From Oscillospiraceae bacterium (lineage in GTDB: Bacteria > Bacillota > Clostridia > Oscillospirales > CAG-272), in NCBI GenBank assembly GCA_015065455.1, contig SVQI01000004.1, positions 12,593-76,592 of the forward strand: a stretch of DNA of 64,000 nucleotides, written 5' to 3'. The notes below the pieces were generated by a model. That model did no database searches. It saw nothing but the letters and a program-made list of their open reading frames with translations, and was not told where the DNA came from. Below, piece after piece: positions 1-35,694 of this stretch. The stretch's first letter is position 1, and the number at the start of each line of letters is the position of its first letter. A program made the position numbers and the translations under genes.

Positions 1-309
1 GTTTACCTTCGTTATGTTTATATCAACATCTTTATCATTTAACTCTGTTATTTCTTTAAGATAAAGTTCTTCGTGTCCGTGTTTTATTGATGGAGTAACA
101 GAATCAGAGATATCCTTATCTGCAGAATTAAATTCAAGATGTTTTTTGTCAATCTCCTCTTTTGATGAAAAGTATCTGATAAGATTTTCATCGAGTAACT
201 GAACGTTATCGCTGATAGTAAGAGAAGTAAGAAAAGGGATATTATCTTTTTCATACAGATATTTCACAGAAGCGGCAAATTTCAAAATGTCTTTATTTTT
301 TAATTTCAT
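1..309 (-). CDS. Phage protein, DUF1617-like (3' end outside window)
   Basis: Read manually: AGGAG RBS (316-320), ATG at 309, open to base 1: MKLKNKDILKFAASVKYLYEKDNIPFLTSLTISDNVQLLDENL...KEITELNDKDVDINITKVN; family call from recalled resemblance only. Confidence 0.6.
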   Translation of the reverse strand, partial: MKLKNKDILKFAASVKYLYEKDNIPFLTSLTISDNVQLLDENLIRYFSSKEEIDKKHLEFNSADKDISDSVTPSIKHGHEELYLKEITELNDKDVDINITKVN

Positions 310-326
310 TAAATACTCCTATCATT

Positions 327-1256
327 TTAACTACTTAGATTTATGGTACCAACAACGTTTCCTGAACCGTTCAGAACGTACAACGTATATGTCGATCCGA
401 CTCTGTTTAGGGCAAATGAAAATGCGCTGTTACCCGTTCCGGTATCAAAGGTAAGAATATCGGAACTGTTTATAAAAAGTCTGCAGTTTATTTCGGGAGA
501 GGACATATAAAGTTCTCTACCTATTCTGGTTCCGTTATAGTTGTTTAATAGGTCTAGTCTGCTATTGTTATCAGTCATAATTTTGGAGGCAGTAACCGAA
601 CCGTTTGCAATATAGTCTCCGTTTATATAGCAAGAACCGTCTTTAGAAATAGAAAAAGTAGTATTTCCGGAGGGATTATAAGCTTTGAGCCAACAATCAT
701 CGGAAGAATTAGCTGAATTAAGGTATATAGAACCCTTTCCGGAAGCGGTACTTGAAATAGAATTTGATGAAATATTCCAACCGCCCACATAAGCCGAAAG
801 CGCTGATAGGTCACTAACCGATAGCTTGTCCGCGGATATAGAACCCGTTTTGATATTAGCACCGTTAATTATTGTTTCTCCTGAGTTTTCAAGGTCAGAA
901 AACTTGACAAAACCGCTGATAGAAACTGATTCGGATATAAGCGATGCAGCATAGCTTGTAAGAGCAAAATCAGTTGAAGAGTTAGAGTCTTTTATAAACC
1001 AATTTATTTTTTCTGCCGTTTGAGTGGTTTTTGAAAGTTTATCGTCAAGTGAAATAATAGTTTCATTGGCAAGCTTAGCGTTATCGTAGGCAGTGTTTAT
1101 GGTTTGAGATAGACTATCGGATAGGTTATCGTCATCAATATTCAGCATAATATATTGGAGTTGGTCGTGTAGAATTGCAAGATAACCTTTTATTTTTTCA
1201 AAGTTATGTCTGTCTGATATTTCGGAAAGAGAGGGAAGAGTAACGTTAAGTTGCAT
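327..1256 (-). CDS. Tail fibre/spike-like structural protein
   Basis: 309 aa; N-terminal coiled coil, INGANIKTGSISADKL and YIANGSVTASKI repeats typical of phage fibres, Ser/Gly-rich beta C-terminus; start overlaps the upstream stop. Confidence 0.65.
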   Translation of the reverse strand: MQLNVTLPSLSEISDRHNFEKIKGYLAILHDQLQYIMLNIDDDNLSDSLSQTINTAYDNAKLANETIISLDDKLSKTTQTAEKINWFIKDSNSSTDFALTSYAASLISESVSISGFVKFSDLENSGETIINGANIKTGSISADKLSVSDLSALSAYVGGWNISSNSISSTASGKGSIYLNSANSSDDCWLKAYNPSGNTTFSISKDGSCYINGDYIANGSVTASKIMTDNNSRLDLLNNYNGTRIGRELYMSSPEINCRLFINSSDILTFDTGTGNSAFSFALNRVGSTYTLYVLNGSGNVVGTINLSS

Positions 1257-3052
1257 TATACCACCTCACCTGCTTTTTCAATTACTTTTGTAAGCGAGTA
1301 AAGTTTAAAGTCGCCTTTTCCGGCAAACTTAAGCTTAAAATGGTCGCACCTCGGCGGGAGAATATGCAGTATACGTGTTGTAAGCTTGGAGCTTGTTAGT
1401 GTGTCGAAAAGCTCCCAATTGTTATTTGAATCCGTTTGTATAAATACAGAAACAGAACTGCCTTCGGATATCTCAATTCGGACTTTCAATTTGTTAAGAT
1501 ATTTACAGTCATCAAAAGAGAGACCAATAAGGCCGCTTTCAGCAAACCAGTCAAAATTATTTTCCGTTTTCAGTGAGTCTGAATAAAGTGTTTGACAAAG
1601 CTCGGGTATTTCTGAAGAGAATAATAGCTCCAGATTGTAGCCGTCTTGAGTGTGGTTTATGCTGAGAATATTCCCATCGTATTTTGAGAAAAACATATAG
1701 TCGGTGCTATCGTGACGATGCCAAAGATTTCTTACTATGTCGTATGCATACAGATGCCGCGTTTGATAGCTGTCTGTCAAACAAATAAAGTATGTGTTTT
1801 TACCTACTGCAGCTACGGCGTGAGAAAAAATTTCATTACCAAGCGGTTTTGAAATCAGAATAGGAGCGCTTCCTGAGTATGAATAAATTCCGTCATTGGA
1901 GTGATAGAACAGAGTGCCGTTATGATTGCAAACGGAGTTTTCGGAATGCTTCTTAATTCCTGGATATTTGTCATTATACACGGTAAAGTTTGAGGGTTTT
2001 GTTCCAAAAAGACGATGTATACTGTTTTCTTTGAAAAAAAGTACGTTGCCCATATGAGATGCAATACCTGTAAATTCTCCTTCGCTTCCGCAAGAAGCTG
2101 TATAACTGTCGGTAGATATACCTTGATATACGTTCCAGTTTGTTGGATCACCATGTTTTGAAGCGTATATTTCGTTGACAAATTCCCCTTTATTATTAAG
2201 ACCGTAACGGCAGCCAAAAAGTCTGTTCTGGTGTTCACAAACGAAATCCATAACAGGAACAGCGCGTTCTATCGTAATTCTATTTTGTCCTTCAAAAAGG
2301 CCTCCGTATACCTTATCAATATATCCGGGTACGGTTATTTGGTCATATTCCATATCAGCTACGGTATGATATCCGTCCATTCCAAAACCAAGGTTGGAAA
2401 TTTCTATTCCATCACCAATCTTCAATCCCATGTGAATATGATCTGCTAATATACATATATGAGTTGACGCGATGCTTGTCCAAGTATTATTAGTGGCAGA
2501 GTATATGTAAAGTTGGTTGGGAAACACAGAACTATCAAGCCACAATGCACCGTCTTCGACTTGCTGAGGTGTTTTTGGTAAAACTATCGGATATGGTCTT
2601 CCCGCAATGCATGGAGTCAACGAAACGCTTACATAGCTAAGTATGTTTTTAGAGTGCAGAAACCCTTTGCTGACACATATTTTATCCTCGTTCAGCGTCA
2701 TAGTGTCAATATAGTAATTGTCGGGGAAAACAATAATTTTACTGCCCATTGATACTATCTGTTTTTTTGTGTTTTCTTCAAGTTTGTCATATTGGAGAAC
2801 ACCGTTGTAATACAGTGAAGTTCCGATGACGTACGTAATGCCATTTGTGGTGTGAAGTGCGGAGGGCTTTTCGGGAAGTGATGTAAGAACTGATCTTTTC
2901 TCTCTTGTGGAAAGAATAGGAAAAAGTGAAGAAGTGGTATTTTGTGTGTTAGAAAAGAAGTTTTCTGAAGCAGCAGACGTTCTGTCAATACCGCCAAAAG
3001 TTGATATTGTGTTTTCTGTCAGTTTATAGGGTTTTAATTTTGGGAAAAACAT
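1256..3052 (-). CDS. Podovirus tail nozzle/stabilisation protein (P22 gp10 / T7 gp12-like)
   Basis: 598 aa beta-rich; N-terminal TFGGIDRT, DFVCEHQNRLFG and IYASKHGDPTNW segments; position after the adaptor. Confidence 0.65.
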   Translation of the reverse strand: MFFPKLKPYKLTENTISTFGGIDRTSAASENFFSNTQNTTSSLFPILSTREKRSVLTSLPEKPSALHTTNGITYVIGTSLYYNGVLQYDKLEENTKKQIVSMGSKIIVFPDNYYIDTMTLNEDKICVSKGFLHSKNILSYVSVSLTPCIAGRPYPIVLPKTPQQVEDGALWLDSSVFPNQLYIYSATNNTWTSIASTHICILADHIHMGLKIGDGIEISNLGFGMDGYHTVADMEYDQITVPGYIDKVYGGLFEGQNRITIERAVPVMDFVCEHQNRLFGCRYGLNNKGEFVNEIYASKHGDPTNWNVYQGISTDSYTASCGSEGEFTGIASHMGNVLFFKENSIHRLFGTKPSNFTVYNDKYPGIKKHSENSVCNHNGTLFYHSNDGIYSYSGSAPILISKPLGNEIFSHAVAAVGKNTYFICLTDSYQTRHLYAYDIVRNLWHRHDSTDYMFFSKYDGNILSINHTQDGYNLELLFSSEIPELCQTLYSDSLKTENNFDWFAESGLIGLSFDDCKYLNKLKVRIEISEGSSVSVFIQTDSNNNWELFDTLTSSKLTTRILHILPPRCDHFKLKFAGKGDFKLYSLTKVIEKAGEVV

Positions 3053-3079
3053 TATGCACCCCCATATTTATTAGAGTGA

Positions 3080-3454
3080 TTAAACGTTAAAATATAGTGT
3101 TTTTTTGATAGGCATATTATTTCGATTGTAATAATTTTCAAAATCACGGTATGCCGTTGAATAAAGAATGACGTCGTTGTTATATCTCGAAATATCTGAA
3201 AGATAAAGGTCTTTTTTTATTGTGAGAAAACGCAGATAAATATCAGAAAACGGTTCGGGCACGAGAAGTCTCGTATTGTCGTCAGTGTCTGTGGTATAAC
3301 CGTTAAACGAAATATGCTCAGGGTTTTCATGTGTAAGGATAATATCTGTATATATTGCAGAATCAAGCAACGAAAGCCAGTCTATCTTTATTTCCGAGGG
3401 AATATTATTTTTGACTTCTCTGTCGAATTTTTCAATAGCTTCTTTTAGTGTCAT
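3080..3454 (-). CDS. Head-tail adaptor-like protein
   Basis: ~124 aa helical protein (LLVPEPFSDIYLRFL) between capsid and nozzle; GAGG RBS favours ATG 3454 over 3466. Confidence 0.6.
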   Translation of the reverse strand: MTLKEAIEKFDREVKNNIPSEIKIDWLSLLDSAIYTDIILTHENPEHISFNGYTTDTDDNTRLLVPEPFSDIYLRFLTIKKDLYLSDISRYNNDVILYSTAYRDFENYYNRNNMPIKKTLYFNV

Positions 3455-3462
3455 AGTATTCC

Positions 3463-3690
3463 TCATTTGCTGATGGATTTTTTGTATTTTTCGGCTGCTT
3501 CATCAGCGTATATAGAATTTTGAATTACTTCTGCAAAGCAGCGTTCAACGTAAAACTGCTTGCCGGTGGGGATAGTTTTGTATCTTCCGTTAATTGAAAC
3601 GGTGCGGACCTCATCATCTTTAGAGCGTTTGGGAATAAAAATAGGAACCAATTCGTTTTGTGTGTTCTGTGTATCTTTTGTGTTTTTCAT
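3463..3690 (-). CDS. Small hypothetical phage protein
   Basis: AAAGGAG RBS then ATG 3690; 75 aa (VSINGRYKTIPTGKQFYVERCFAEVI) directly after the capsid gene. Confidence 0.7.
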   Translation of the reverse strand: MKNTKDTQNTQNELVPIFIPKRSKDDEVRTVSINGRYKTIPTGKQFYVERCFAEVIQNSIYADEAAEKYKKSISK

Positions 3691-3748
3691 AATAATACTC
3701 CTTTTATCTAATAATAATTCAAGCAAAACAGTTGTCTTTTTAAAAATC

Positions 3749-3779
3749 AGGGGACTTTTCTGATAAGAAAAAGTCCCCT
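3749..3779 (-). terminator. Intrinsic terminator after the major capsid gene
   Basis: Hairpin AGGGGACTTTTC-TGATAA-GAAAAAGTCCCCT with flanking T/A runs. Confidence 0.75.
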
Positions 3780-3791
3780 TTTTATCAAATA

Positions 3792-5126
3792 TCAGTTGCC
3801 TTCGCTAATGCTGTCAGCGAAAGAAGAAGAGGATTCAACGCGGAGAATATATTCATCTGCGAGAATGGCGGCTGTCATAAACGCTTTCCAACCGATAGAA
3901 CTTCTCTGATTAAGAGGGTCATTTCCATAACCTCTCTGCTTAACGATATGTTCAATAGTTCCTGAGCCATTTATGTCAATGATGCCGTAAGCATCGCGGC
4001 CGAGAAACAATGTTGAATATGTAGCGCAGCCAAGACTACCGCCTTCGCCTGCAAAAAGTGATGCGCTATCAGCGTTGGAAGTTCCACAGTCACTATCCAA
4101 GAATATAAATTTGTTTTCAACGTTAACGCCTGTTATTTTGTGTACGGATGCTTTGTTTGTTGAAGATTTAAATACCTGAACCAATCTGCCAACAATATCG
4201 GGAGAAAATTCATCCTTAACTGTAAACTGGAATGGTGTGGCGGTTCCGCAACCGGCAGATACAGTGCCTGTTCCTTCATTTGTGTATGCCTGTGCAGAAA
4301 TGTGTTTCTTGGTTGAAGAAAAGGGCTTACCGTAGTTAATCTTTGCTTCTGACGATTCAACAAATCTGACACCGCCGAGAGTACCGAGTTCACCGTTAAG
4401 AATGTTATCAGGATCGGCATATTTCTTGATATCAATCCAGGCATCTCCAGACTGCTGCATTAAGTCAAAGGCTACGTGAGGGTGAATGATGGCAACGTAT
4501 TTGCCATCGATTGTCGGAACGTTAAGGGCTTTAAGCTGGGCAGCAGCTTTAAAAACGTCAACAACACGAAGTCTGGAGGAGGGTTCAAGATATGCGCGTG
4601 AAGAAACGTCTGTTAAATACCCCTCATCATCATTGGGACAGTAATATACGTTGGTACCCGTCTGAAGAACGTCACGAATGACAGTATCAAGTGTTCTGCC
4701 CGCCTGGTCAGCAAGAAGCTTTGTAGCTTCGATAACTGTGTTGTCAATCGATGTCATTTCAATAAGGTCGGTCTGTTCGATGTAGTCACCGTACTGGTTG
4801 AGAGTGGCAGTAAGCGGAACTACCGTCATCTTTGAGCCTGAAGGAGTGATACCTTCTGTAATAGCGTTTGTGTTTTTTGCCAAGGGCTTCATTCTGCGAA
4901 ACTCAATAGTTTTTCCGCCGTGAGCGGGAATAGAGCGTTTCTGACCAAACTGTGCGTGTACGAGATTGGGTGTTGCAAGCTCGATAAGTGTTTTATCGTA
5001 GAATGTTTTCATTTCGGCAGAAAGACCGCCGCCGTTGTAGTTTTCAACAGTGCCCGCGTTTGAATTTACAAATCCTTCAGTACTATGAACTGTGCTGTTT
5101 GCGCCGTATGTGTTAGTGTTTTCCAT
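3792..5126 (-). CDS. Major capsid protein, N4-gp56 family
   Basis: LSAEMKTFYDKTL, GKTIEFRR, EGITPSG, QYGDY, GELGTLGGVRFVE and DPLNQRSSIGWK motifs; AGGAG RBS. Confidence 0.9.
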   Translation of the reverse strand: MENTNTYGANSTVHSTEGFVNSNAGTVENYNGGGLSAEMKTFYDKTLIELATPNLVHAQFGQKRSIPAHGGKTIEFRRMKPLAKNTNAITEGITPSGSKMTVVPLTATLNQYGDYIEQTDLIEMTSIDNTVIEATKLLADQAGRTLDTVIRDVLQTGTNVYYCPNDDEGYLTDVSSRAYLEPSSRLRVVDVFKAAAQLKALNVPTIDGKYVAIIHPHVAFDLMQQSGDAWIDIKKYADPDNILNGELGTLGGVRFVESSEAKINYGKPFSSTKKHISAQAYTNEGTGTVSAGCGTATPFQFTVKDEFSPDIVGRLVQVFKSSTNKASVHKITGVNVENKFIFLDSDCGTSNADSASLFAGEGGSLGCATYSTLFLGRDAYGIIDINGSGTIEHIVKQRGYGNDPLNQRSSIGWKAFMTAAILADEYILRVESSSSFADSISEGN

Positions 5127-5186
5127 AAGTTGTAATCTCCTTTTTTAATAGTTTTTGCGCAGGAGATTTTATTTAAGACAGATGGA

Positions 5187-6005
5187 TTAAAATCTTATTT
5201 TAGAGCCGTTTTCCACCTGCTTAAGAATAGAACGTATTTCTTCACCGGTGAGTGAAGATACGTCGGTTTTTCGGACAACTCCCGCGCCGTTGTGAAGTCC
5301 ATTTTCGGCTACGCGACTGCCTTGAGCACGAATGCTTTTGAGAGTCTGTTCGGCAACTTTTTTTGCAGTTCCGGAGACTGCGTTTTTTAAAAGCTCGTCC
5401 GAGTGTGCTGCTGTAAATGCTTTTTTTACGGGCATACCGTTTTTCAAAAGGGAAGCAAATACGGGATTTTTCAGTTCTGTTTTAAAATCAAAATTCGGAA
5501 AAATCTTTTTTAAAGCTTCACCTTCGGCAGCCCAACGGTTAGAAAGCATTTTTGCTTTGTTTGCAATATAGCGTTCTCTCATTTGCATTTCGTTTTTTTC
5601 AGCGTTACCCGTTTCAGATTTCTTTTCATCAGGAGCATCATTCTGCATTTTTTCAAGAAGCAGCGCGGTGTCAGAAGAATCAATTCCATATTTTTTGGAG
5701 AGAAAATCGAGTACAGGCTGCTGTTTTGCCTGAGCTTCCTCGAGAGTTTTCAAGGTCTTAAAACGCTTATCAATAATGCCCTGTGTGCGTTTTTTGAAAG
5801 CGTTTTCATACTTTCCACCCTTGATTAGCTTTTCGAATTCTTCTTCAAGCTGATTGCCGTCCAAAATGTTGTCGGCAGAAGCTGTGTCAGATACTGCTTC
5901 AGTTTCGGGAAATGCGTCGCCCGTATTGGAGGAGATATCGTTGGCAATTTCCTCTGATGCAAAAAACTGAAGAGAAATTTTAATGGGTAAATAAATATTT
6001 TTCAT
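5187..6005 (-). CDS. Capsid scaffolding protein
   Basis: 272 aa; acidic N-terminus, charged helical body, LQFFAS motif; lies between portal and capsid. Confidence 0.75.
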   Translation of the reverse strand: MKNIYLPIKISLQFFASEEIANDISSNTGDAFPETEAVSDTASADNILDGNQLEEEFEKLIKGGKYENAFKKRTQGIIDKRFKTLKTLEEAQAKQQPVLDFLSKKYGIDSSDTALLLEKMQNDAPDEKKSETGNAEKNEMQMRERYIANKAKMLSNRWAAEGEALKKIFPNFDFKTELKNPVFASLLKNGMPVKKAFTAAHSDELLKNAVSGTAKKVAEQTLKSIRAQGSRVAENGLHNGAGVVRKTDVSSLTGEEIRSILKQVENGSKIRF

Positions 6006-6054
6006 AACATCGTTCCTTTCCGAAGTGTCAGAGCTTTTTTGATAGCTCGTGTGA

Positions 6055-6086
6055 TATTATACTATAAAATGATTTTAATCTCTCCC
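6055..6086 (-). promoter_or_regulatory. Putative module-specific promoter GGGAGAGA-N17-TATAATA for scaffold-capsid
   Basis: Minus strand reads GGGAGAGA ttaaaatcattttatag TATAATA; same boxes and spacing as 10040-10071. Confidence 0.65.
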
Positions 6087-6150
6087 TAAAAGCAATATTA
6101 TATATGATTAAAAGAATAGAATTAGGAGAGAGTGAACAGATACAAATTGC

Positions 6151-8070
6151 TTATCGTGGAGCGCTTAAGTTAGCAGCTCTCTGGCGTGCTTTGTCAATTC
6201 TTGAAATACTTTTTTTGGTATATGTGTATTTTTTTGATGGTTGAGCTGTTTTCTGCAATGTAAGATCTGAGTATTTTTTTACATAACCTTCATATAAACC
6301 TGCCAGCTCAGGATGGTCTTTTTCGACAATGGAAGCAAGTTCAAGAAGCTTTGATCGTATTTCCGTATAGTTTGTGGAAAGCATACTTTTTTCGCTTATT
6401 TTTTCTGCAATGATCTGTTTGCCGTCAAACTCCATCATATCAAGACAAGCCAATGCTTGTTCTGCCTGTGCTGGATTAAAGAAGCCAAGTCGGTAAAATT
6501 CTTTTGCAAGCTCGTTTTGTGAAAGCTTGGTAAATGCAGACTGTTTTTGAGCTTTTACTTTAATGTCGAAGATAGGCAAGCGCAAACCGAGATCAAATCC
6601 AAAAGAACTTCCCATAGAACGTGGTAAAAGATTTTCATTGTTGTATGTAACAAAATCGTATTCTCCGTTTTCGCCCGTTATTCTGAAACAGCGGGGCAGA
6701 TCGTAAAATTGTCTGATAAGTTCAATTATAAGATTGTTGAGTCTAACAAAGATTCTGTATGAGCCTTTGATCATATCTCTTGACAGCTTACTTCCAGCTT
6801 CCTGTAAGGCGGCTATGGCAGATGCCGCGGTGACACCCGAGGCGGTATTTCCTCTTGTGAAGTCAGAGTTACCGGTAGTTTCTTTAAGTTCGTTAATTTT
6901 GTTGTCTATAAAAGATACGTAAAGAGGTGATATATCGGAAACACGGATGGGAGTCATACTGTCATTGGGGTTGCCGGAACCTGTGTAGTGGACAATAGGG
7001 TTACTCCAGTCAGCAAATTCTTTTTCGTTGATTGATCCGTCTCCTCTGGCAAAATAACGAACGGTTGACGCCATTCTGATGTTTTCACAAACAGATGCGC
7101 TCATAAGATCTATCTGCGTCTGTGTATCCTTCATAATATCGATGAAACCAAACCCGCAAGGCGTACCTTGTTCGGTAAACAGCTTATCAAAAACAAAGGG
7201 ATAAAGACCGTGATCGTAATATCCTTTATTATAGAGTGTGATATCGTTTTCGGAAGCGTAGAGTATTTGATCTGCGCAAAATTTACAAAGGTGAAGAATG
7301 GTTTTTCCGTTGTTATTTACTTTGTAATACCAGTCGATAACGGGAGTTTTATTGCTTGTGTCAACAGCGTCGTCGTATTGATATTTTGTTACGTCAATTC
7401 CGTATGAACCAAGTTTACCGTGCAGAAAGGGGTATTTTGCTTCAAGTTCATCGTTGTTAAAAAGCTCAACGTGAAAAATATTGGGGGATTTCTGTATATC
7501 CGATACACCGGGCTCCCAGAAAAGATTTAAAATGTCGCATCTTTTTATAGCGATATCGCCCGTGCCGTTATTGAGTGAGGGGTCCCAAAAGATTCCGTAG
7601 ACACCTGTTCCGCCTTTCAGCTTGTCATACCAAACGTCTGAATACGTGTCTTCAAATGAGTTTTGTTCGAGAATGACAGGAAGTATTTCAGTAAGCTGTT
7701 TTGCAGCGTCTGAGTCGCTTTGTTCTCTGGGAAGAACGATTGCTTCGGGGCAGTTATCCATAACGTCAGCGTGCTTGTTTGCGATAGCATTGAAAAGCCA
7801 GGCGGATGCAGGATTGTGTTTTCGGCTTCTGTCGCGAATCTGTTCCCAATGGCGCATTTTCCACCACTGTTCGTTTTCTGTAACTCTTTTTTCAAGGTTG
7901 GTTTTACCCGCTTTATAGTTTTTTAAGAGTGAATAGGCGCGGTCGAGGGATTTTTGATTGATTTTGTCAGGAGAATAATCGGGCGGGAGAAGCGCATCCG
8001 GATTGTTCTTGATGTAAATGGATGAAACAAGGTTTTTATCGGGGATTTTTTTGTTTTGTTTTTTCTTCAT
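6151..8070 (-). CDS. Portal protein (P22-like/podoviral type)
   Basis: 639 aa after terL; GTGVYGIFWD, YPFVFD, SGVTAASAIAALQEAG segments typical of portals of this class. Confidence 0.8.
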   Translation of the reverse strand: MKKKQNKKIPDKNLVSSIYIKNNPDALLPPDYSPDKINQKSLDRAYSLLKNYKAGKTNLEKRVTENEQWWKMRHWEQIRDRSRKHNPASAWLFNAIANKHADVMDNCPEAIVLPREQSDSDAAKQLTEILPVILEQNSFEDTYSDVWYDKLKGGTGVYGIFWDPSLNNGTGDIAIKRCDILNLFWEPGVSDIQKSPNIFHVELFNNDELEAKYPFLHGKLGSYGIDVTKYQYDDAVDTSNKTPVIDWYYKVNNNGKTILHLCKFCADQILYASENDITLYNKGYYDHGLYPFVFDKLFTEQGTPCGFGFIDIMKDTQTQIDLMSASVCENIRMASTVRYFARGDGSINEKEFADWSNPIVHYTGSGNPNDSMTPIRVSDISPLYVSFIDNKINELKETTGNSDFTRGNTASGVTAASAIAALQEAGSKLSRDMIKGSYRIFVRLNNLIIELIRQFYDLPRCFRITGENGEYDFVTYNNENLLPRSMGSSFGFDLGLRLPIFDIKVKAQKQSAFTKLSQNELAKEFYRLGFFNPAQAEQALACLDMMEFDGKQIIAEKISEKSMLSTNYTEIRSKLLELASIVEKDHPELAGLYEGYVKKYSDLTLQKTAQPSKKYTYTKKSISRIDKARQRAANLSAPR

Positions 8071-8109
8071 ATACAGTCTCCATTTCTGAATAGATTAAAA
8101 AAGTTTGTG

Positions 8110-9492
8110 TTAAACGTAGCTGTACTTTCTGTATCTTTCATCTCTCAATAGGTCAAGAGGGTCAGATGAAGGATATTTTGCAAGAATTTGTTTTTGAGGC
8201 TTTATGGGTCTTGACATACAGAAATAACGGAATGAGTCAGCGAAGTGGTCTTCCTGTGAAGTATCAAGATCCTCGGGGTTGGTTTTGCTGAACTGCAAAA
8301 GGGGAAGAGTTCTTATGGCATGCTTGCAGGTGTTAAAGAAATAGACCATAGGCTTTCCATCACTGTCGAAAGCAAGTCTGTAGTGAACTTGCATCCAGCC
8401 GGGAATTCTGCAATTATCTGCTTTTTGAAAATATACCTGATGTCTGTCAGCGGCGGCAATTATTGGCTCTCCGCCGTCCTCGCTCCAGATGGATGGATCG
8501 GCAATTCCGATAATTGATTTTCCTTTTAACCACCGATGCTCTGATTCTATTCTGTGAATTTCGGCAAATACTTTCTCAGCGTGCCATTTTAAGCCTTCGT
8601 TGGGGACGCCGTTGCTGCCGTAAAAGTGAAGAATGAGGTAGGCTCGTCCGTCGTAATCTATTGCCCACCAAGAGCAATCAAATGGTTTTGCAAATCCCCA
8701 GTCAAAGCTGCGTACGATATGCCAATCCGGTGGGATTTCAAAGGGCTCGATAACGTTTGTGAAGAGCCTGTCAGAATAATGTTCGGGCGCATCAATAAAA
8801 TCTTCAAAAAACTGTCCTTCAAATATGTTCCAATCACCGTCAAGCCAAGCCTTTTTTAGCTTTGGAGGCAAAGATGAAAGCTGCTTTGCATAATCGGGAT
8901 TTGTATCCATAAGCGCTTTATTGTCTGTAACAAGAGAACGTATAAAGCTGTAATCATTAGGATCTTCACCCTCTTTGTATACTCTATCAATGAATAAACG
9001 CTTTACCCACGAATGACCAACTCCGCCGGGATTGCAGGTGAGATATACTCTTTTTGGAAAGTTATTTACACCTCGTACCGTAACTTTAAGCTCGTCAAAC
9101 CATTCTTCTTTAAGCTGGGTTGCTTCGTCAATGAAAATAATATCCCATTCCGATCCCTGATACTGAGTCAGGTCAGCTTGACATGAGCAGTAACCAAAAC
9201 GAATTGCCGAGCCGTTTTTAAAAGCGAGTTCTTTTTTTGAATCGTTATAACTTGTAAGGTTTTTTGTTATATCGATAAGAGGGTTAATGTGATTGTTTCG
9301 GAGCTCGGCAAGTGTTTTTCTGATAATGAGTATTTTTATTCCCGAGTGCTTCAAAGCAAGTAATACCGCTTTTACTCTGACAGCCCAGGATTTACCTCCA
9401 CCTCTTGCTCCGCCAAAAGCAACGAATCTGTGCGTATCAAGCAGAAATTCTGACTGCTTTGGATTTGGAACTCCTAAAGAAATATGCTTCAA
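8110..9492 (-). CDS. Terminase large subunit
   Basis: Walker A GGARGGGKS, Walker B IIFIDEA, coupling motif LTCNPGG, nuclease motifs RSFDWG and EDHFADSFRY; GAGGTGA RBS before TTG. Confidence 0.95.
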   Translation of the reverse strand: MKHISLGVPNPKQSEFLLDTHRFVAFGGARGGGKSWAVRVKAVLLALKHSGIKILIIRKTLAELRNNHINPLIDITKNLTSYNDSKKELAFKNGSAIRFGYCSCQADLTQYQGSEWDIIFIDEATQLKEEWFDELKVTVRGVNNFPKRVYLTCNPGGVGHSWVKRLFIDRVYKEGEDPNDYSFIRSLVTDNKALMDTNPDYAKQLSSLPPKLKKAWLDGDWNIFEGQFFEDFIDAPEHYSDRLFTNVIEPFEIPPDWHIVRSFDWGFAKPFDCSWWAIDYDGRAYLILHFYGSNGVPNEGLKWHAEKVFAEIHRIESEHRWLKGKSIIGIADPSIWSEDGGEPIIAAADRHQVYFQKADNCRIPGWMQVHYRLAFDSDGKPMVYFFNTCKHAIRTLPLLQFSKTNPEDLDTSQEDHFADSFRYFCMSRPIKPQKQILAKYPSSDPLDLLRDERYRKYSYV

Positions 9493-9501
9493 GCTATCAC
9501 C

Positions 9502-9978
9502 TCACATACAGTATTTCTCCATATCATTTTCGAGGATGACCCGAATTTCATTTTCTGTTGAAACGGCTTCAGGATGTTTTCTTTGCTCGTATTCAATCTG
9601 TTTTTGTTCAGTAAGGAGGGGAAGAAGAAATATGTTTTGCTTGATGTTTATAGCCTCTTTAAGTGTAGATGTAAGCTCTTTTAAAGTTTTAGTGTCAACG
9701 TCCCCCTTTTTTGAAGAAGCCTCTGAGGCAGAAATGAAGGCGTTTTCTATAAGGGATTCCAAAGCATCCGAGGAACGCGCTAATCTTGAAACGTCAAGCG
9801 GTGGCATATCGGGAGAAGAATTATATTGCTTCCTTTTTTGAACCCAGTTGTTGTCCTTTGCATACTTTGCCAAAAGTCTTAATGGAATAGAATATTTGCT
9901 TGCCAGTGCGGCGTATGAGAGATTGGAGGATATATATTCATCTTCCGCTTTTTCGTAATCTAAAATTATGTTAATCAC
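9502..9978 (-). CDS. Terminase small subunit (start codon uncertain)
   Basis: N-terminal HTH (LSYAALASKYSIPLRLLAKYAKDNNW), helical core, immediately upstream of terL. Confidence 0.75.
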   Translation of the reverse strand: MINIILDYEKAEDEYISSNLSYAALASKYSIPLRLLAKYAKDNNWVQKRKQYNSSPDMPPLDVSRLARSSDALESLIENAFISASEASSKKGDVDTKTLKELTSTLKEAINIKQNIFLLPLLTEQKQIEYEQRKHPEAVSTENEIRVILENDMEKYCM

Positions 9979-10039
9979 CTCTCTTAAATAAAAAATTAAA
10001 TTGAAAAATAAAGGGTGTATAACTGTTTTGCTTGAAGAG

Positions 10040-10071
10040 TATTATATCAAATAATATATGTTTTCTCTCCC
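10040..10071 (-). promoter_or_regulatory. Putative module-specific promoter GGGAGAGA-N17-TATAATA for terS-terL-portal
   Basis: Minus strand reads GGGAGAGA aaacatatattatttga TATAATA; twin of 6055-6086. Confidence 0.65.
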
Positions 10072-10082
10072 CACGAGACGTA

Positions 10083-10111
10083 TTGACACTAAGTCGAAAA
10101 TGTGCTAAAAT
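10083..10111 (+). promoter_or_regulatory. Sigma-A promoter of gpsA
   Basis: TTGACA-N17-TAAAAT with extended TGn. Confidence 0.75.
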
Positions 10112-10158: not shown

Positions 10159-11112
10159 ATGGATATAACAGTAATCGGATGTGGCAGATGGGGTTCTTGT
10201 ATCGCGTGGTATCTTGACAAAATTGGCCATAACGTAACACTTTACGGAAACGATCTAAAACAGATCAGAGGAATAATGGAAACACGCACGAACGGAGTTG
10301 TGCAGTTTGGTGACAGAATAAATATTACCGATGAGATAGAGGTTGCCGCGAAGAATAAGACTACGGTAATTTCAATACCTTCACAGGCGGTAAGAGGATT
10401 GATGAAGGAGCTTCAGGCGTACGGAGCTTCAGAAAAAGAATACATACTTTGCATGAAGGGTATAGAGATCTCGACGGGAATGCGTTTGAGTGAAGTGGTA
10501 AGAGAGGCTACTACTCCTGAAACAAAGATAGCGGTTTGGATAGGTCCGGGACACGTAGAGGAATTCACAAAGGGAATACCCAACTGTATGGTAATTGACA
10601 GTGATAATAATGAATATAAAGAATATCTCGTATCACAGTTTTCAAGTGAGCTTATCCGTTTTTATTACGGTAAGGATCTTGTTGGAAATGAGATAGGAGC
10701 TGCTGCAAAGAACGTAATTGGTATTGCGGCAGGATTGCTTGACGGCAAGGGTTTATCATCGCTTAAGGGCGCTCTTATGGCAAGAGGTACGAGAGAAGTT
10801 GCGAGACTCATAACCGCTCTTGGAGGAAATGAGTTGTCTGCATACGGGCTTTGTCATTTGGGCGATTATGAAGCGACTTTGTTCTCCAAGTTCAGTCACA
10901 ACAGAATGTATGGAGAGATGTTTGCAAAGGGTGAACAGTACGGAAGTCTGGCAGAAGGTTATTATACAGTAAAGGCAATATTGAAATTGGCTGAAAAATA
11001 TAATGTTGACCTGCCTATTTGCGCGGCTGTATATGAAGTGTTATACAACGGAGCAGAGCCGGAAGCAGCGCTGAAGGCTTTGTTTACAAGATCTTTAAAG
11101 GGAGAATTTTAA
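10159..11112 (+). CDS. gpsA: NAD(P)H-dependent glycerol-3-phosphate dehydrogenase
   Basis: VIGCGRWG Rossmann motif, KGIE, AAKNVIGIA, LGDYEAT, SHNR; GGAGG RBS. Confidence 0.93.
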   Translation: MDITVIGCGRWGSCIAWYLDKIGHNVTLYGNDLKQIRGIMETRTNGVVQFGDRINITDEIEVAAKNKTTVISIPSQAVRGLMKELQAYGASEKEYILCMKGIEISTGMRLSEVVREATTPETKIAVWIGPGHVEEFTKGIPNCMVIDSDNNEYKEYLVSQFSSELIRFYYGKDLVGNEIGAAAKNVIGIAAGLLDGKGLSSLKGALMARGTREVARLITALGGNELSAYGLCHLGDYEATLFSKFSHNRMYGEMFAKGEQYGSLAEGYYTVKAILKLAEKYNVDLPICAAVYEVLYNGAEPEAALKALFTRSLKGEF

Positions 11113-11224
11113 CGTTATTTTCCGATTTTACCAAAAAGTTTGCAGTTACATTTTTAGTATTCATTGATTATAATATTAGTAACTATAATAGAGTTAGAGA
11201 TATTATAAAAGGGTGAGTGAGAAA

Positions 11225-11842
11225 ATGGAGCTGATTCTCATTAGCGAATCAAAACTGAAGATAATGCTGACAGCGGATGATATGGAGAATTACGACATAT
11301 CAAACGAGCAGATGACTTACGAGAAGAAGGAAACCAGGCGGGTTTTTGAAAAGCTTCTTGATGAGGCGAGAGAAAAGACGGGATTTGACAGTAGTTCGGA
11401 GCGTATTTTTATACAGGTATATCCGTCCAAGAACGGTGGGTGTGAAGTGTACGTAACGCTGAACACAGAGGGAAAGCAGGAAAGGAAACAAAGAGAGAAG
11501 AGTACTGCACCGAAAAACAAAAAGGAGTATTGTGTATATTTGTTTGAGAATATAGACGATGCTTTATCAGCTTGTTGCGTTTTGCGGAAAATCGGATACA
11601 AGAATGAAAGTTCGCTTTATTCAGAGCAAAAAGGGAAGGCACAGGTCAAATATTACCTTGTTTTGCAGGAAGATGTTATACAAAATACACAGGGCAGAAA
11701 AAGAAGAAACGTAAGCAAAAGCGATCTTGCGAACGAGTATGGGAAAAAACTTGCAAGCAAGGAGTGGATGCTTTACATAAGAGAGCACGGAAAAGCTATT
11801 GTTGAGAAAAATGCAGTTCAGACTATGAGTGTGCTCAGATAA
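11225..11842 (+). CDS. mecA: Adaptor protein MecA family
   Basis: MELILISESKLKIMLT start, IFIQVYPSKNGGCEVYVT, C-terminal IREHGKAIVEKNAV. Confidence 0.8.
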   Translation: MELILISESKLKIMLTADDMENYDISNEQMTYEKKETRRVFEKLLDEAREKTGFDSSSERIFIQVYPSKNGGCEVYVTLNTEGKQERKQREKSTAPKNKKEYCVYLFENIDDALSACCVLRKIGYKNESSLYSEQKGKAQVKYYLVLQEDVIQNTQGRKRRNVSKSDLANEYGKKLASKEWMLYIREHGKAIVEKNAVQTMSVLR

Positions 11843-12556: not shown

Positions 12557-12585
12557 TTGACAATATAAGCTATATAATGTACAAT
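12557..12585 (+). promoter_or_regulatory. Sigma-A promoter
   Basis: TTGACA-N17-TACAAT. Confidence 0.6.
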
Positions 12586-12624
12586 AGATATGTATATAAT
12601 TTGAACTTCCAACGGAGGACGTTT

Positions 12625-15600
12625 ATGAAAAGATTTTATATATTTATGTCAATGGCGTTGATTGCAGTAATTGTTGCAGCACTGTCAGTTATGAATTTTT
12701 CTGCATCGGCAGCAACGCTCGAAGTATACAGTGATGTTGTTTTTGTTTCCGACAACGCTACCGAAGGCGGAGATGGAAAGACAGCGAATACTCCACTCTA
12801 TCCATCCAATTTAAAGGAAACGGTTGCTGGCAACAACACCTATCAACTTTCTAATCTTTACCAAGCTGCAGAAAAATTGCTTGACAAAGGTGGAACAATA
12901 GTTGTGTGCGGACCTGTTGTTATTGACGGTGATGATTGCCAGATAAGTTCTAGTACTACGTTTAGAGATTTCTATTTCCCCGGTGGGACCAAGCCTATTG
13001 TTATAACAAGTGTATATGACGGTGTTGATTACAGCAAACCGGAAAACGGCGGTGCTTACCTCGCCATTAAACAACCTGCAGAAATCAGACTTGGAACTGA
13101 TACTGAATTCAATAATATTTCCATAAATGTTGAAGGAAATATGAGATGTATCTTTGCAAACGGAAATAAGCTTGTTATGGGTGATAATGTTACTACATCA
13201 GTCAATAACACAGATGCTTATAAGTCTAACTTGTCTATTTGCGGTGGTATAAGATTTGGTGATTTTACAGGAAATACTGATATTACAATTATGTCGGGAA
13301 CGTACAGTAATATTTGCGGTGCAGGATATTCAAGCGTAGAGGGGCCGTCTCATTATGTCGGTGATACAAAGATTACAATTAAGGGTGGTACTATAAAAGG
13401 TAATATCTGTGGAGGTAACCCTTTTGACTTTATAGCAGATAATAATAAGGTGCCTTGGACACAGGAAGGTGACGTTCAAATTGATGTTTACGGCGGTGTT
13501 ATAGAAAGGCCGATATTATTAACCGGACAGGGCGGTTTTTCTACAAATGATAACAATGTAAAGATCAATATATATGGCGGAACCGGAACGTTTACTACTG
13601 CATCCGCAAAAATTGAAAACGCTCCTAATTCAGCATCTGTATCAAACTATTTACCGTCAAATGTGTACTTGAATCTTTCAAATACAGGTTTGACAGACAG
13701 TTTGATTAACAACTTTATCAACAACGCCACCGCGGCGATGTTTGATATTACATATCCTGCGTCATGGATCACAAGCGGAAGCTGGACGGTTAAGCCTAAG
13801 ACACCTTCGGTTGTTTTAAATAACGAAACCCTTACAGCAGAAGGCGCTGTTTTATCTGTAACATATAAAAACGGTAAGACGAAGACGATTACCTATAACC
13901 CTGAAGATAAGGCTTTTGAAACAACGTGTAATACAGGGGTAATTGGAACACAAACAGTAACGTATAAGTACGGAACACTTTCTTGTTCAGATACAGTTAA
14001 AGTGGTTAAAACTCCCAGCCTTGTGGTAGAGGGGGCAAAAATAAGAGTTGACAGAACAGATTATACCCAGGGACTTCGTTTTGTTGTAAACCAAACGGGT
14101 GATTTGCAATCCGGCATGGTAATAGCTGAACGCGGTGTGATTGCAGTTCCGTTTGATATAATCAATGATGAAACAAAACTTAATTTTGAAACAATGGCGG
14201 GAATGAATGTTCTTACCCCCAATGTTTCAAGAGGAGATTACGACGAAGAAACCGGTTACACTTGTACAATATACGATATTCCGCTTAACCGTTTTAATAT
14301 TGATTATATTGTGAAAGCTTATATGAAGCTTTCGTATGAAGGTGAGACATACTACGTTTATTCAGATGCAGTGAGAAGAAACCCATATAAGATCGCGCAG
14401 CAGGCAGCGGCTCAGAATTCTGTTGAAACGGCTGAAATAAAGGATTATCTTCAGACTAATGTTATAAATGCTTATGAAAGTTACAAAGTGCCGGAACGTG
14501 TAACGTCAGGCACATTAACCACTGTTGGATATGCAGATTCGACTGCTCTCAGACAGAAGGTTGTCGATTATATGGAAGCTCAAATGAATATTAAGTGGAC
14601 CCCTAAGGAAACGTTCAGAATATATAACACGGGTTCAGAGGGCGTAGGCATTAATATGATATTTGAGAAAGGGAAGACCTATTACGGATTACCCTATACC
14701 AACTTTAAATCTTCGCAGAACGAATCATTTATCAAGTTTATGAACGGTGTAGACAGCAACGGTAACATGATATTGGATTTTGATTTAATGAAACAAAGCG
14801 GATATGATGTTAACCCCTGTTCTACAACTGATACAGTCACATCAAAAACAAACTATAATAACTTTCCGGGTTCGGACTGTTCAACAGCGGTTATTACGTC
14901 TTGGAATTCGGTTATAAACAACAGACTTAGCATGCAAGAAGTTAACGGAACCGCCAACTTGATTCCCGGAAAGGTTCCTAATATAATTCCCGTTGGTAAC
15001 TACAAATATCTGGATGATAGCGGACGTGCTTATGATAACACAAACAGAATAATAAGCGCTAATAGTGCTGATGAGATCTATGCATCTTATGATTTGTTAC
15101 AGCCCGGAGATGCAGTTATCGAATACAGAGGTAGCGGACACGTAAGAATGGTTGTTGAAGTTGATAAAGTAAACAAAACGGTCACAACTATAGAGTGTGC
15201 AAGCTGGGGTATTCCTAATGCTACTGTATCAAGCATAAGCGGATCTCAATATTATACAGACAATAATACTTGTTGGAGAAGACTTACGTACAGCTATTCA
15301 AGTTTAAGATCAAGCAACTATATTCCGATAACTATTCCTGAGCTTGTAACGGGACACAGTGACAAAGAAATGACGGTTGTAACAGATTTGTCGCTGGATA
15401 AAGATCTTCCTGAAATGAAGCTTAATGGTACTGTTATATCAAATAAACAGATTGTATATCTGGAAGCAGAAGTAACAGACGGAAGTAACACACAGAAGGT
15501 GTACTATAAATTAAACAAATCAACAAAATTTGGAACAGTATACGCGTTCTATACTGATTTGGATAAGATGGACTTCTCTGAAGTACAGCTCAATAGTGGT

Positions 15601-15687: not shown

Positions 15688-15700
15688 GTAAAAATAAAAC

Positions 15701-15733
15701 GACTCTCATCTAGTATGATGGGAGTCTTTTTTT
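15701..15733 (+). terminator. Intrinsic terminator
   Basis: GACTCTCATC-TAGTAT-GATGGGAGTC plus T run. Confidence 0.8.
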
Positions 15734-15833
15734 TGTGGAAATACAGTTTTGTTTCTAAATAACAAATGTTGTGACTTGAATTTGTTAATAATAACAAAAA
15801 ATATAAAATATGGAAAAAAATAACAAAAAAGTA

Positions 15834-15862
15834 TTGACTAACCAATTGAGTTTGTGTAAAAT
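15834..15862 (+). promoter_or_regulatory. Sigma-A promoter
   Basis: TTGACT-N17-TAAAAT. Confidence 0.55.
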
Positions 15863-15901
15863 AATATCGAGCTCACAAATAAATACAAATGGAGGATGTT
15901 T

Positions 15902-35683: not shown

Positions 35684-35694
35684 TTATAAGATAA

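What the first reader, a model, noticed from the sequence alone, without database searches (positions are those of the whole stretch)
1..10111. Stand-alone podovirus-type virion module joined to core genes: candidate gene transfer agent or domesticated phage
Seen: ten co-oriented ORFs with no visible frameshifts form a packaging, head and short-tail set, and TerL keeps all ATPase and nuclease motifs. Only 180 bp separate terS (9978) from gpsA (10159). That gap is filled by the module's leader and promoter and the gpsA sigma-A promoter, which are 11 bp apart. Known: in temperate phages the region upstream of terS normally holds replication, regulatory or lysis genes, whereas GTAs (RcGTA, VSH-1, Dd1) and PBSX-like elements are host-kept structural clusters that package host DNA. 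Inference: this is a vertically inherited, host-controlled particle-making locus in a spore-forming clostridial lineage, with podoviral parts unlike the siphoviral RcGTA. The distal end lies outside the window.
Basis: partly seen in the sequence, partly recalled or inferred. Interest (0 to 1): 0.9.

Follow-up and report, generated by a model that had tools for sequence, protein, structure and literature searches.

The report
Host-kept short-tailed phage particle genes
A 12.9-kb block of phage head, short-tail and lysis genes, with no replication or integration genes, sits at the same chromosomal spot in most species of this gut Clostridia genus where that spot could be read, so it is most likely a host-kept particle-making element like the 'gene transfer agents' recently described in gut bacteria, not a live prophage.

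Summary
Ten co-oriented minus-strand ORFs (terS, terL, P22-type portal, scaffold, N4-gp56-type capsid, adaptor-like proteins, a podovirus nozzle, fibre proteins) end 180 bp from gpsA. The missing far end lies just left of the window. It holds one more fibre-like gene, small ORFs, a holin and a GH25 endolysin, then the host genes capD and aspartate kinase. The whole element is 12.85 kb with no integrase, replication gene or att repeat.

All 11 other species genomes of the genus carry at least part of it. It abuts gpsA in 7 of 7 readable junctions and capD in 6 of 8. Synonymous sites are saturated while ORFs stay intact (pN/pS 0.14-0.43, like the flanking genes). The well-supported rpoB splits recur in the module tree.

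Related stand-alone modules occur in other Oscillospirales. True ~40-kb phages with this module carry replication and lysogeny genes.

Erosion exists: one species lacks terS and terL, and one strain lacks the nozzle gene.

A 2026 paper describes a podovirus-like GTA of the same gene order in Faecalibacterium (FpGTA). I therefore call this a new member of a known kind. Particle production and DNA transfer are untested, and sequence homology to FpGTA could not be checked.

The parts
9502..9978 (-). terS, small terminase candidate (158 aa from GTG 9978; the real start is more likely ATA 9969 or ATT 9966, after the RBS-like GAGAGGTGA)
   Evidence: Position upstream of terL. Weak phrog_1206/phrog_4151 hits on residues 7-77. 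The model has three short N-terminal helices plus two long helices, pLDDT 70. No significant PDB fold match. Start codon argument.
8110..9492 (-). terL, large terminase (460 aa) with conserved ATPase motifs and conserved acidic residues in the C-terminal half
   Evidence: PF04466 2.7e-16 and phrog_2 1.4e-41. Residues 16-160 align with Sf6 gp2. Conserved motifs in 37 homologues.
6151..8070 (-). portal protein, P22-like (639 aa)
   Evidence: PF16510 8.1e-24 and phrog_156 3.3e-78.
5187..6005 (-). scaffold candidate (272 aa), named by its position between portal and capsid genes
   Evidence: phrog_13908 2.6e-44, a family of unknown function. Found in 66 of 80 related loci directly before the capsid gene.
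3792..5126 (-). major capsid protein (444 aa), N4-gp56 family, with a ~90-aa insertion (about residues 262-357) that more distant relatives lack
   Evidence: phrog_1357 4.6e-76. Name given by NCBI to homologues. Split matches in relatives.
3463..3726 (-). small virion-module protein (87 aa as listed; probably shorter), function unknown
   Evidence: phrog_15239 1.2e-5. Conserved in the genus.
3080..3466 (-). 128-aa protein, adaptor candidate by position before the nozzle gene
   Evidence: phrog_12105 1.1e-34. Found in 54 of 80 related loci. The adaptor role is inferred, not tested.
1256..3052 (-). tail nozzle protein of podovirus type (598 aa)
   Evidence: AlphaFold model pLDDT 92.6. Top 26 PDB fold matches are tail proteins of short-tailed phages, where named the nozzle or hub. 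phrog_511 2.7e-48.
327..1256 (-). tail fibre or tip protein candidate (309 aa); only 169-180 aa in G003 and G007
   Evidence: PF09327 Phage_Tail_Tip 2.1e-6. Length table.
1..309 (-). first 103 codons of a 126-aa module ORF that runs off the window's left end. The rest of the element lies at C8:9722-12592: a 369-aa fibre-like protein, 68-aa and 80-aa ORFs, a holin, and a GH25+CW_7 endolysin.
   Evidence: phrog_1401. Left part read in L002.
10041..10072 (-). candidate module promoter: GGGGAGA box (10072-10066), 19-nt spacer, extended -10 TGATATAAT (10049-10041)
   Evidence: GGGGAGA is present in the 4 species whose sequence reaches it, and a TGnTAnAAT-type -10 in 4 of the 5 aligned species. Coordinates. 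Not found by the sigma-70 consensus scan. Function is inferred.
10083..10111 (+). gpsA promoter-like site, TTGACA-17-TAAAAT with an upstream TG
   Evidence: 11 of 12 matches. The -35 is conserved in 5 of 5 aligned species.
10159..11112 (+). gpsA (host gene), right border of the element
   Evidence: PF01210 and PF07479. 84-92% identical in 6 other species.

Best explanation
The locus is a domesticated remnant of a ~40-kb short-tailed phage. Only the packaging, head, short-tail and lysis genes survive (terS to endolysin, 12.85 kb, C8:9722-22570 = window 1-9978 plus 2.87 kb to the left). It has been inherited vertically between capD and gpsA since before the species of this genus split.

Likely mechanism (inferred): a host-controlled promoter in the 180-bp gap drives one long minus-strand operon in a few cells. 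TerS and TerL fill capsids with DNA through the P22-type portal. The adaptor, nozzle and fibres close the particle. Holin and endolysin then lyse the producer.

With no replication or excision, the packaged DNA would be mainly host chromosome. That makes it a gene-transfer-agent-like element of the FpGTA type.

Shown here: gene content, borders, synteny, purifying selection and co-divergence. Inferred: expression, particle assembly, what is packaged, and delivery.
For: 1) Content and borders. Searches give terS-terL-portal-scaffold-capsid-adaptor-nozzle-fibres-holin-endolysin, then directly capD and aspartate kinase on the left and gpsA, mecA and a UDG gene on the right. The five tyrosine recombinases of the genome all lie on other contigs. 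The module genes have no paralogues elsewhere, and the borders share only an 11-bp A/T repeat.

2) Presence in the genus. The capsid gene is in 10 of 11 other species genomes. The eleventh (G008) has terL at 84% identity.

3) Synteny. gpsA adjoins the module in 7 of 7 species whose contigs reach that end; in six it abuts terS, and in G006 it abuts the portal gene. capD adjoins the endolysin in 6 of 8.

4) Selection. pS is 0.64-0.80, i.e. saturated, in module and flanking genes alike. Module pN is 0.11-0.34. For G000-G004, omega is 0.037 for portal, 0.093 for capsid and 0.030 for gpsA. Core ORFs are full length wherever contigs cover them.

5) Co-divergence. The rpoB splits {G000,G004}, {G011,G002} and {G010,G009,G011,G002}, and the weaker {these four + G006} (89/92), all recur in the concatenated module tree at 100%. 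Mantel test: 35 of 5000 permutations reach the observed r = 0.51.

6) Wider family. Stand-alone versions occur in other genera. G013 is flanked by glutamine synthetase. G020 is split into two intact halves 12.5 kb apart. In 24 non-genus loci, the 126 ORFs upstream of terL matched NadA, IscS, NifU, MnmA, MFS and the like, and no integrase or replication family was among the 25 families listed. The same held for 81 downstream ORFs in 16 loci, apart from lysis genes.

7) Positive control. Flanks of 11 IMG/VR contigs of 31.7-44.4 kb (9 of them 37-44 kb) with the same module gave replisome organiser, G39P, SSB, primase, helicase, CI repressor and integrase.

8) Precedent. FpGTA of Faecalibacterium has the same gene order and no replication genes. 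It makes ~40-nm particles carrying ~9-kb host DNA. A 12.7-kb cluster with terminases, capsid genes, holin and endolysin was proposed for Butyricicoccaceae.
Against: - No expression, particle or packaging data: all runs that hold the locus are DNA contigs.
- Erosion in some lineages. G006 has gpsA 440 bp from the portal gene and no terL anywhere in its 84%-complete genome. One goat-gut sample has a contig joining across a 1.9-kb deletion of the nozzle gene. The 309-aa fibre is truncated and the 126-aa ORF is missing in G003 and G007. An ABC transporter is inserted between the portal and scaffold genes in G002 and G006.
- Rank correlation of module and rpoB distances is weak (Spearman 0.18, not significant). 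rpoB resolves only part of the tree (3 of 7 branches starred).
- At order level the capsid gene is patchy: 36 of 301 genomes, 12 of 26 families.
- TerS seems to keep an HTH-like N-terminus, whereas FpGTA's TerS is said to lack a DNA-binding domain. Packaging might therefore be site-directed.
- Free relatives have ~40-kb genomes. If the capsid is still that large, the whole locus would fit inside it.
- Homology to FpGTA proteins was not tested.
Confidence: 0.62

Rival explanations
1. Domesticated, but not for gene transfer. The particles would serve another host function: a PBSX-like killer particle, programmed lysis for release of DNA or public goods, or defence against related phages. Any packaged DNA would not be delivered.
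For: The genomic evidence shows selection on the particle genes, not on transfer. The FpGTA authors leave this option open. The lysis cassette is conserved in all 8 other species whose contigs reach it.
Against: TerS, TerL and portal are among the best conserved genes (83-90% and 77-88% identity), so DNA packaging itself is under selection. A tail-only bacteriocin would not need them.
Confidence: 0.15
2. An old defective prophage remnant that is simply decaying slowly, kept by chance or by linkage to capD and gpsA.
For: Loss of terS and terL in G006. Nozzle deletion in one strain. Fibre-region truncations. Host genes inserted inside the module.
Against: Synonymous sites are saturated (pS 0.64-0.80), yet the core ORFs of up to 639 codons stay open wherever contigs cover them in up to 10 species, with pN/pS 0.14-0.43, like the neighbouring host genes at 0.11-0.38. 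Neutral decay over that time would have destroyed them.
Confidence: 0.13
3. A mobile element: a prophage or helper-dependent capsid-forming satellite (cf-PICI-like) that repeatedly enters the capD|gpsA site.
For: IMG/VR lists a 12.75-kb contig with a 76%-identical capsid gene as viral. Authors of the mouse study note that such clusters resemble capsid-forming satellites. The order-level distribution is patchy.
Against: There is no integrase, replication gene or att repeat. The element has its own nozzle, fibres and lysis genes. The module tree follows rpoB where rpoB is resolved. The junction sequence, including the shared promoter region, is itself conserved.
Confidence: 0.06

Closest known systems
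FpGTA of Faecalibacterium prausnitzii (Borodovich et al., Nat Commun 2026, PMC12946183; sections 9, 10 and 26 read)
   Same: Gene order TerS-TerL-portal-scaffold-capsid plus short-tail proteins in about ten ORFs. No replication genes. Holin and endolysin belong to the system. Near-universal in its genus. Host order looks the same: record titles of the related loci name Oscillospiraceae, Ruminococcaceae and Acutalibacteraceae.
   Different: FpGTA is split into a 10.5-kb operon and a 5.5-kb tail/lysis operon ~125 kb apart; here everything is one 12.85-kb cluster. FpGTA's TerS is said to lack a DNA-binding domain; this TerS looks HTH-like at its N-terminus. Sequence homology was not testable here. 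Particles and ~9-kb packaged DNA are shown for FpGTA and not here.
12.7-kb GTA candidate cluster of Butyricicoccaceae QXXE01 (bioRxiv 10.64898/2026.07.08.737213; passages read)
   Same: Nearly the same size. Small and large terminases, capsid proteins, holin and endolysin in one cluster. The host contigs were evenly covered by VLP reads. Capsid homologues of the window's protein occur in Butyricicoccus pullicaecorum.
   Different: That cluster also encodes a transcriptional activator; none is seen here. Homology to it was not tested. Its authors could not tell a GTA from a satellite.
RcGTA and other alphaproteobacterial GTAs
   Same: A head-tail cluster without replication or integration genes, vertically inherited, under purifying selection, released by lysis.
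   Different: RcGTA is siphovirus-like with an HK97-type head module and a tape measure, and its genes are scattered over several loci under known regulators (recalled). Here the tail is short and there is a single locus.
PBSX of Bacillus subtilis
   Same: A host-kept defective phage element in a Gram-positive spore former that packages host DNA and lyses the cell (as described).
   Different: PBSX is myovirus-like, acts as a killer particle and has its own repressor (recalled). No sheath, tube or repressor is present here.
Bacillus megaterium podophages Page, Pony and Poppyseed (Pagevirus), and ~40-kb IMG/VR contigs
   Same: Nearest isolated phages by capsid protein (37% identity). The IMG/VR contigs share terL, portal, scaffold, capsid, nozzle and the 369-aa protein.
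   Different: They are 32-44 kb with replication, repressor and integrase genes. Only the capsid and portal of Page are detectably similar.
Capsid-forming PICIs (cf-PICI)
   Same: Small (10-15 kb) chromosomal islands that encode their own terminase, portal and capsid.
   Different: cf-PICIs carry an integrase and replication genes and steal tails from a helper (recalled; cited). This element has none of the former and has its own nozzle, fibres and lysis genes.

Membership tests
Gene transfer agent (viriform) in the general sense | Phage-derived head/tail/packaging genes without replication, integration or lysogeny genes | tested here: met
   15 ORFs from terS to endolysin, with host genes on both sides and no recombinase on the contig.
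Gene transfer agent (viriform) in the general sense | Vertical inheritance with the host at a fixed locus | tested here: met
   Present in 11 of 11 other species. gpsA junction in 7 of 7 and capD junction in 6 of 8. Supported rpoB splits recur in the module tree.
Gene transfer agent (viriform) in the general sense | Purifying selection on the structural genes | tested here: met
   pS is saturated and pN/pS is 0.14-0.43. ORFs intact. Exceptions: G006 lacks terS and terL, and one strain lacks the nozzle gene.
Gene transfer agent (viriform) in the general sense | Particles carry near-random host DNA and cannot transmit the whole locus | not testable with these tools
   Only DNA metagenome contigs hold the locus. 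Capsid size is unknown.
Gene transfer agent (viriform) in the general sense | Production under host regulation | tested here: inconclusive
   There is a conserved GGGGAGA box plus an extended -10, without a canonical -35. No regulator was identified.
FpGTA family | TerS-TerL-portal-scaffold-capsid plus short-tail proteins; no replication genes | tested here: met
   compared with the description.
FpGTA family | Sequence homology to FpGTA proteins (e.g. RCH50849.1, RCH50851.1) | not testable with these tools
   No named Faecalibacterium sequence could be reached. Two guesses turned out otherwise: a 48% GC locus and Butyricicoccus pullicaecorum.
FpGTA family | TerS without an evident DNA-binding domain | tested here: inconclusive
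   The N-terminal three-helix unit has weak DNA-binding and TerS PHROG hits, pLDDT 84-89 and only non-significant HTH fold hits.
Podovirus-type virion module | P22/T7-type portal-adaptor-nozzle tail, with no tape measure, tube or sheath | tested here: met
   Portal PF16510. Nozzle fold. No long-tail family hit.
Integrated temperate prophage | Integrase, att repeats, repressor and replication genes | tested here: not met
   The positive control shows such genes are detected in real relatives.
Capsid-forming PICI satellite | Integrase and replication module; no tail genes of its own | tested here: not met
   (none present). Own nozzle and fibre genes.

The most novel reading that the evidence does not exclude
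The FpGTA-type element is not special to Faecalibacterium. It would be one branch of an old, order-wide family of domesticated podovirus particles in Oscillospirales: 379 related capsid loci in species genomes, and stand-alone modules in at least four families. This genus would keep the complete one-operon form (packaging, head, tail and lysis behind one host-type promoter). The family would then supply the gene clusters that are still missing for the GTA-like DNA packaging seen in gut Oscillospiraceae and Butyricicoccaceae. Deletion variants such as the nozzle-less strain and the terminase-less species would be natural non-producer 'cheaters'.
Probability: 0.35. Interest if true: 0.75.

Novelty: new member of a known kind. 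Interest (0 to 1): 0.6.

Why it matters
GTAs were long known almost only from Alphaproteobacteria. In 2026 a podovirus-like one was shown in Faecalibacterium, and GTA-like packaging was seen in other gut Clostridia whose gene clusters were not found.

This locus gives a clean, compact candidate in another lineage, one that lives in animal guts. Its evolutionary evidence (fixed position, co-divergence, purifying selection) goes beyond what I saw in the sections read of the Faecalibacterium paper, which report presence in 12 genomes.

It also shows that related stand-alone modules are scattered through the order. The contrast with real ~40-kb phage relatives gives a simple genomic test for telling the two apart.

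If these elements are active, they could be a major route of gene flow among abundant gut anaerobes.

Tried and rejected
- Sequence search of the 598-aa protein against PDB found nothing; the fold search solved it.
- A TerS profile against PDB gave only chance-level hits. The TerS fold search had no match at E <= 0.001, so TerS is named by position, weak PHROG hits and helix layout only.
- Sequencing runs: no RNA holder is listed. The four runs laid are contigs, so they say nothing on expression, ends or packaging. Most joints with sides of 20-29 letters were ignored as likely repeats or other organisms.
- Attempts to reach a named Faecalibacterium homologue, to test kinship with FpGTA, failed:
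  - ESM Atlas gave only 'N4-gp56 family' clusters.
  - A complete 2.69-Mb genome (G183) had 48% GC at its locus.
  - A 59% GC candidate (G308) proved to be Butyricicoccus pullicaecorum.
- A genome-wide search for the GGGGAGA...TGnTAnAAT motif gave one other site (C16:13052-13083), upstream of short, broken-looking ORFs with no Rfam match. I treat it as possible chance.
- Hot-spot prophage and satellite readings were rejected for lack of an integrase, replication genes or att repeats, and because of co-divergence.
- My notebook says 13 of 26 families. The recount is 12 of 26.
- The supplementary files of PMC12946183 (proteomics, gene lists) are closed and could bear on the homology question.

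Full report
**What is in the window.**
- The window is G000:C8:12593-76592, in a 1.54-Mb, 97%-complete genome.
- Ten minus-strand ORFs fill window 1-9978.
- Pfam and PHROGs name a large terminase, a P22-like portal, a major capsid protein and a weak small terminase. The other ORFs match PHROGs of unknown function that recur in phages.
- TerL residues 16-160 (Walker A, Walker B, C-motif) align with Sf6 gp2. Positions conserved at >=95% in 37 homologues are Walker A (G27-S35), Walker B (D117, E123), the C-motif (T152, N154) and the acidic residues D264, D332, D415 and D419 in the C-terminal half. I read the latter as nuclease residues from general TerL knowledge.
- The 598-aa protein folds with pLDDT 92.6. 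Its 26 best PDB matches are all tail proteins of short-tailed phages; where the entries name them they are the nozzle or hub of PhiM1, T7, P22, Sf6 and SU10.
- The nearest isolated phages by capsid are the Bacillus megaterium podophages Page, Pony and Poppyseed at 37% identity. Only the capsid and portal of Page are detectably similar.
- The 'podovirus-type packaging, head and short-tail set' is therefore real.

**The far end.** The contig runs 12.6 kb further left.
- The module continues with the rest of the 126-aa ORF, a 369-aa protein, 68-aa and 80-aa ORFs, a holin and a GH25+CW_7 endolysin.
- It stops at C8:9722. Next come a capD-type polysaccharide gene and aspartate kinase on the other strand.
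- On the right come gpsA, mecA, a uracil-DNA glycosylase family gene and purine genes.
- The element is thus 12.85 kb.
- The genome's five tyrosine recombinases are all on other contigs.
- No module gene has a paralogue elsewhere, and the borders share only an 11-bp A/T repeat.
- GC content matches the neighbourhood.

**Relatives in the genus.**
- The capsid gene is found in 10 of 11 other species genomes at 69-76% identity. The eleventh, a 79%-complete genome, has terL at 84%.
- tblastn maps and ORF maps show gpsA next to terS in G004, G007, G003, G005, G011 and G001.
- In G006, gpsA lies 440 bp from the portal gene. That makes 7 of 7 readable right ends at gpsA.
- The endolysin abuts capD in G004, G007, G003, G005, G006 and G009.
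- G010 has other genes there, and G011 shows no capD in the 1.26 kb available. That makes 6 of 8 left ends at capD.
- Core ORFs are full length wherever contigs allow.

**Selection and trees.**
- By Nei-Gojobori counting, the median synonymous difference is 0.64-0.80 in both module and flanking genes, which is saturation. Non-synonymous difference is 0.11-0.34.
- For the closest pair (G000-G004), omega is 0.037 for portal, 0.093 for capsid and 0.19 for scaffold, against 0.030 for gpsA and 0.019 for aspartate kinase.
- An rpoB tree of 10 species has three starred splits and one at 89/92. All four recur with 100% support in the tree of ten concatenated module proteins.
- The trees differ only where rpoB is unresolved.
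- Pairwise distances correlate moderately: Pearson 0.51, with 35 of 5000 Mantel permutations reaching it. Spearman is only 0.18 and not significant.

**Signs of erosion.**
- G006 lacks terS and terL at the locus, and no terL was found in its 84%-complete genome.
- The 309-aa fibre is cut to 169-180 aa and the 126-aa ORF is missing in G003 and G007.
- G002 and G006 carry an ABC transporter plus DUF1854 gene, on the opposite strand, between the portal and scaffold genes.
- Several species keep extra ORFs that G000 has lost: about 115 aa after the portal gene, and about 583 aa after the 369-aa gene.
- In one goat-gut metagenome a contig joins window ~1239 to ~3149. This deletes the nozzle gene, and depth over that stretch is low there.

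**The wider family.** An alignment of capsid proteins found 379 related loci in species genomes. The best 80 are nearly all MAGs whose titles name Oscillospiraceae, Acutalibacteraceae, Ruminococcaceae, Candidatus Avispirillum or simply Clostridia.
- Clustering their ORFs shows one conserved set: terL, portal, a ~115-aa ORF, scaffold, capsid, the 128-aa protein, the nozzle and the 369-aa protein. Nothing is conserved upstream of terS apart from one 364-aa family found in 6 loci.
- In the same family as the window, G013 has a compact module flanked by glutamine synthetase and other host genes.
- G020 has two intact halves facing away from each other across 12.5 kb of host-type genes.
- Pfam tally upstream: 126 ORFs upstream of terL in 24 loci gave NadA, IscS, NifU, MnmA, MFS and similar. 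HTH_3 appeared in 3. No integrase or replication family was among the 25 listed of 63 families matched; by the ranking, any unlisted family matched one member.
- Pfam tally downstream: 81 ORFs in 16 loci gave amidases, holins and dockerin-bearing proteins, then transporters.
- Control: 145 flanking ORFs from 11 IMG/VR contigs of 31.7-44.4 kb (9 of them 37-44 kb) with the same module gave replisome organiser, G39P, SSB, primase, helicase, CI repressor, integrase and Prp protease.
- So free or temperate phages of this lineage exist, and the chromosomal modules are stripped derivatives.
- Across the order the capsid gene is patchy: 36 of 301 genomes and 12 of 26 families, but in all sampled members of some genera.

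**Regulation.**
- The scan finds the gpsA promoter at 10083-10111 and no consensus site on the module strand.
- The aligned gaps of five species share the gpsA -35.
- On the module strand there is a GGGGAGA box in the 4 species whose sequence reaches it, then an extended -10 of TGnTAnAAT type, then an RBS-like GAGAGGTGA.
- In G005 the frame is closed by TGA until an ATT codon, and the doublet ATW-ATT is conserved. terS therefore probably starts at a weak ATT/ATA codon. This is inference.

**Literature.**
- Borodovich et al. 2026 (sections 9, 10 and 26 read) describe FpGTA.
  - A 10.5-kb operon holds TerS, TerL, portal, scaffold, capsid and hypothetical proteins.
  - A 5.5-kb operon holds tail, holin and endolysin genes.
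  - Capsids are ~40 nm, packaged DNA is 8.4-8.9 kb, and the element is present in all 12 Faecalibacterium genomes examined.
  - They call it the first podovirus-like GTA-like element.
  - They saw GTA-like packaging in Oscillospiraceae and others without finding the genes.
- A 2026 preprint (passages read) proposes a 12.7-kb cluster in Butyricicoccaceae.
- Searches for GTA with Clostridia, podovirus, Oscillospiraceae and related terms found nothing closer.

**Verdict.** Function is inferred, and kinship with FpGTA is likely but untested. The finding is a well-supported new member of a kind described in 2026. Its added value is the evolutionary evidence and the view of an order-wide family.

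Noticed in passing
window 9964-9978: terS probably starts at ATA/ATT rather than the listed GTG. The GTG lies inside an RBS-like GAGAGGTGA. In G005 the frame is closed by TGA until an ATT codon. A weak start codon would keep TerS levels low.
   Followed up: partly
window 3792-5126 (capsid residues ~262-357): The capsid protein carries a ~90-aa insertion that the Page capsid, Butyricicoccus (324 aa) and many order-level relatives lack. It is also the least conserved part within the genus, so it may be a surface domain.
   Followed up: partly
window ~1240-3148 (L128 8233-10141): One goat-gut metagenome run (X11) has a contig that joins across a 1.9-kb deletion. The deletion removes the nozzle gene and clips both neighbouring genes. 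Depth over the deleted stretch is low in that run.
   Followed up: partly
L032:5901-8647 and L036:4556-7295: In G002 and G006 a 746-749-aa ABC transporter and a DUF1854 gene lie on the opposite strand, between the portal and scaffold genes of the module. G010 seems to have the same transporter there.
   Followed up: partly
G020:C6:15567-21377 and 33879-37200 (L024, L119): In another genus of the family the module is split. Scaffold, capsid, nozzle and the 369-aa homologue lie on one strand. terL, portal and a 109-aa ORF lie 12.5 kb away on the other strand, with host-type genes between. No lysis genes are adjacent.
   Followed up: partly
window 11213-11842: The gene after gpsA encodes a MecA-family adaptor (negative regulator of competence in Bacillus), conserved next to the module in 4 other species. 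A link between competence control and a DNA-transfer particle is speculative.
   Followed up: no
window 44132-45172: A 346-aa P-loop NTPase (weak NPHP3_N/STAND-like hit) has 28-35% identical homologues lying directly upstream of terL in 6 related loci (L065, L071, L072, L076, L078, L107).
   Followed up: partly
G000:C16:13052-13083 (L133 2053-2084): This is the only other genomic match to GGGGAGA-N(12-22)-T[GA]nTAnAAT. It lies upstream of short, broken-looking ORFs and has no Rfam match. It may be chance.
   Followed up: partly
L028 (MT835662.1) and L129 (G183:C1:486000-505900): A human-faecal 'Bacteriophage sp.' virome scaffold carries a related module followed directly by host genes (CAP, M23 peptidase, SpoIIM, PTAC, ZIP). 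Eight of its eleven module ORFs have exactly the lengths seen at a chromosomal locus in a complete 2.69-Mb genome. It is thus bacterial chromosome found in a VLP data set.
   Followed up: partly
one search hit list (Butyricicoccus pullicaecorum capsid homologues): Dozens of independent assemblies hold this capsid gene on contigs of about 6.85-6.96 kb. This may reflect one strain sequenced many times with breaks at the same repeats, or a discrete unit.
   Followed up: no
G002:C12:2040-3368 (L126): G002 has a second terL at 60% identity on another contig, so a second related element or prophage exists in that species.
   Followed up: no
window 12577-18943: Two adjacent genes encode ~1000-aa proteins with similar N-termini. 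One has a Big_3 domain. They are probably paralogous surface proteins.
   Followed up: no
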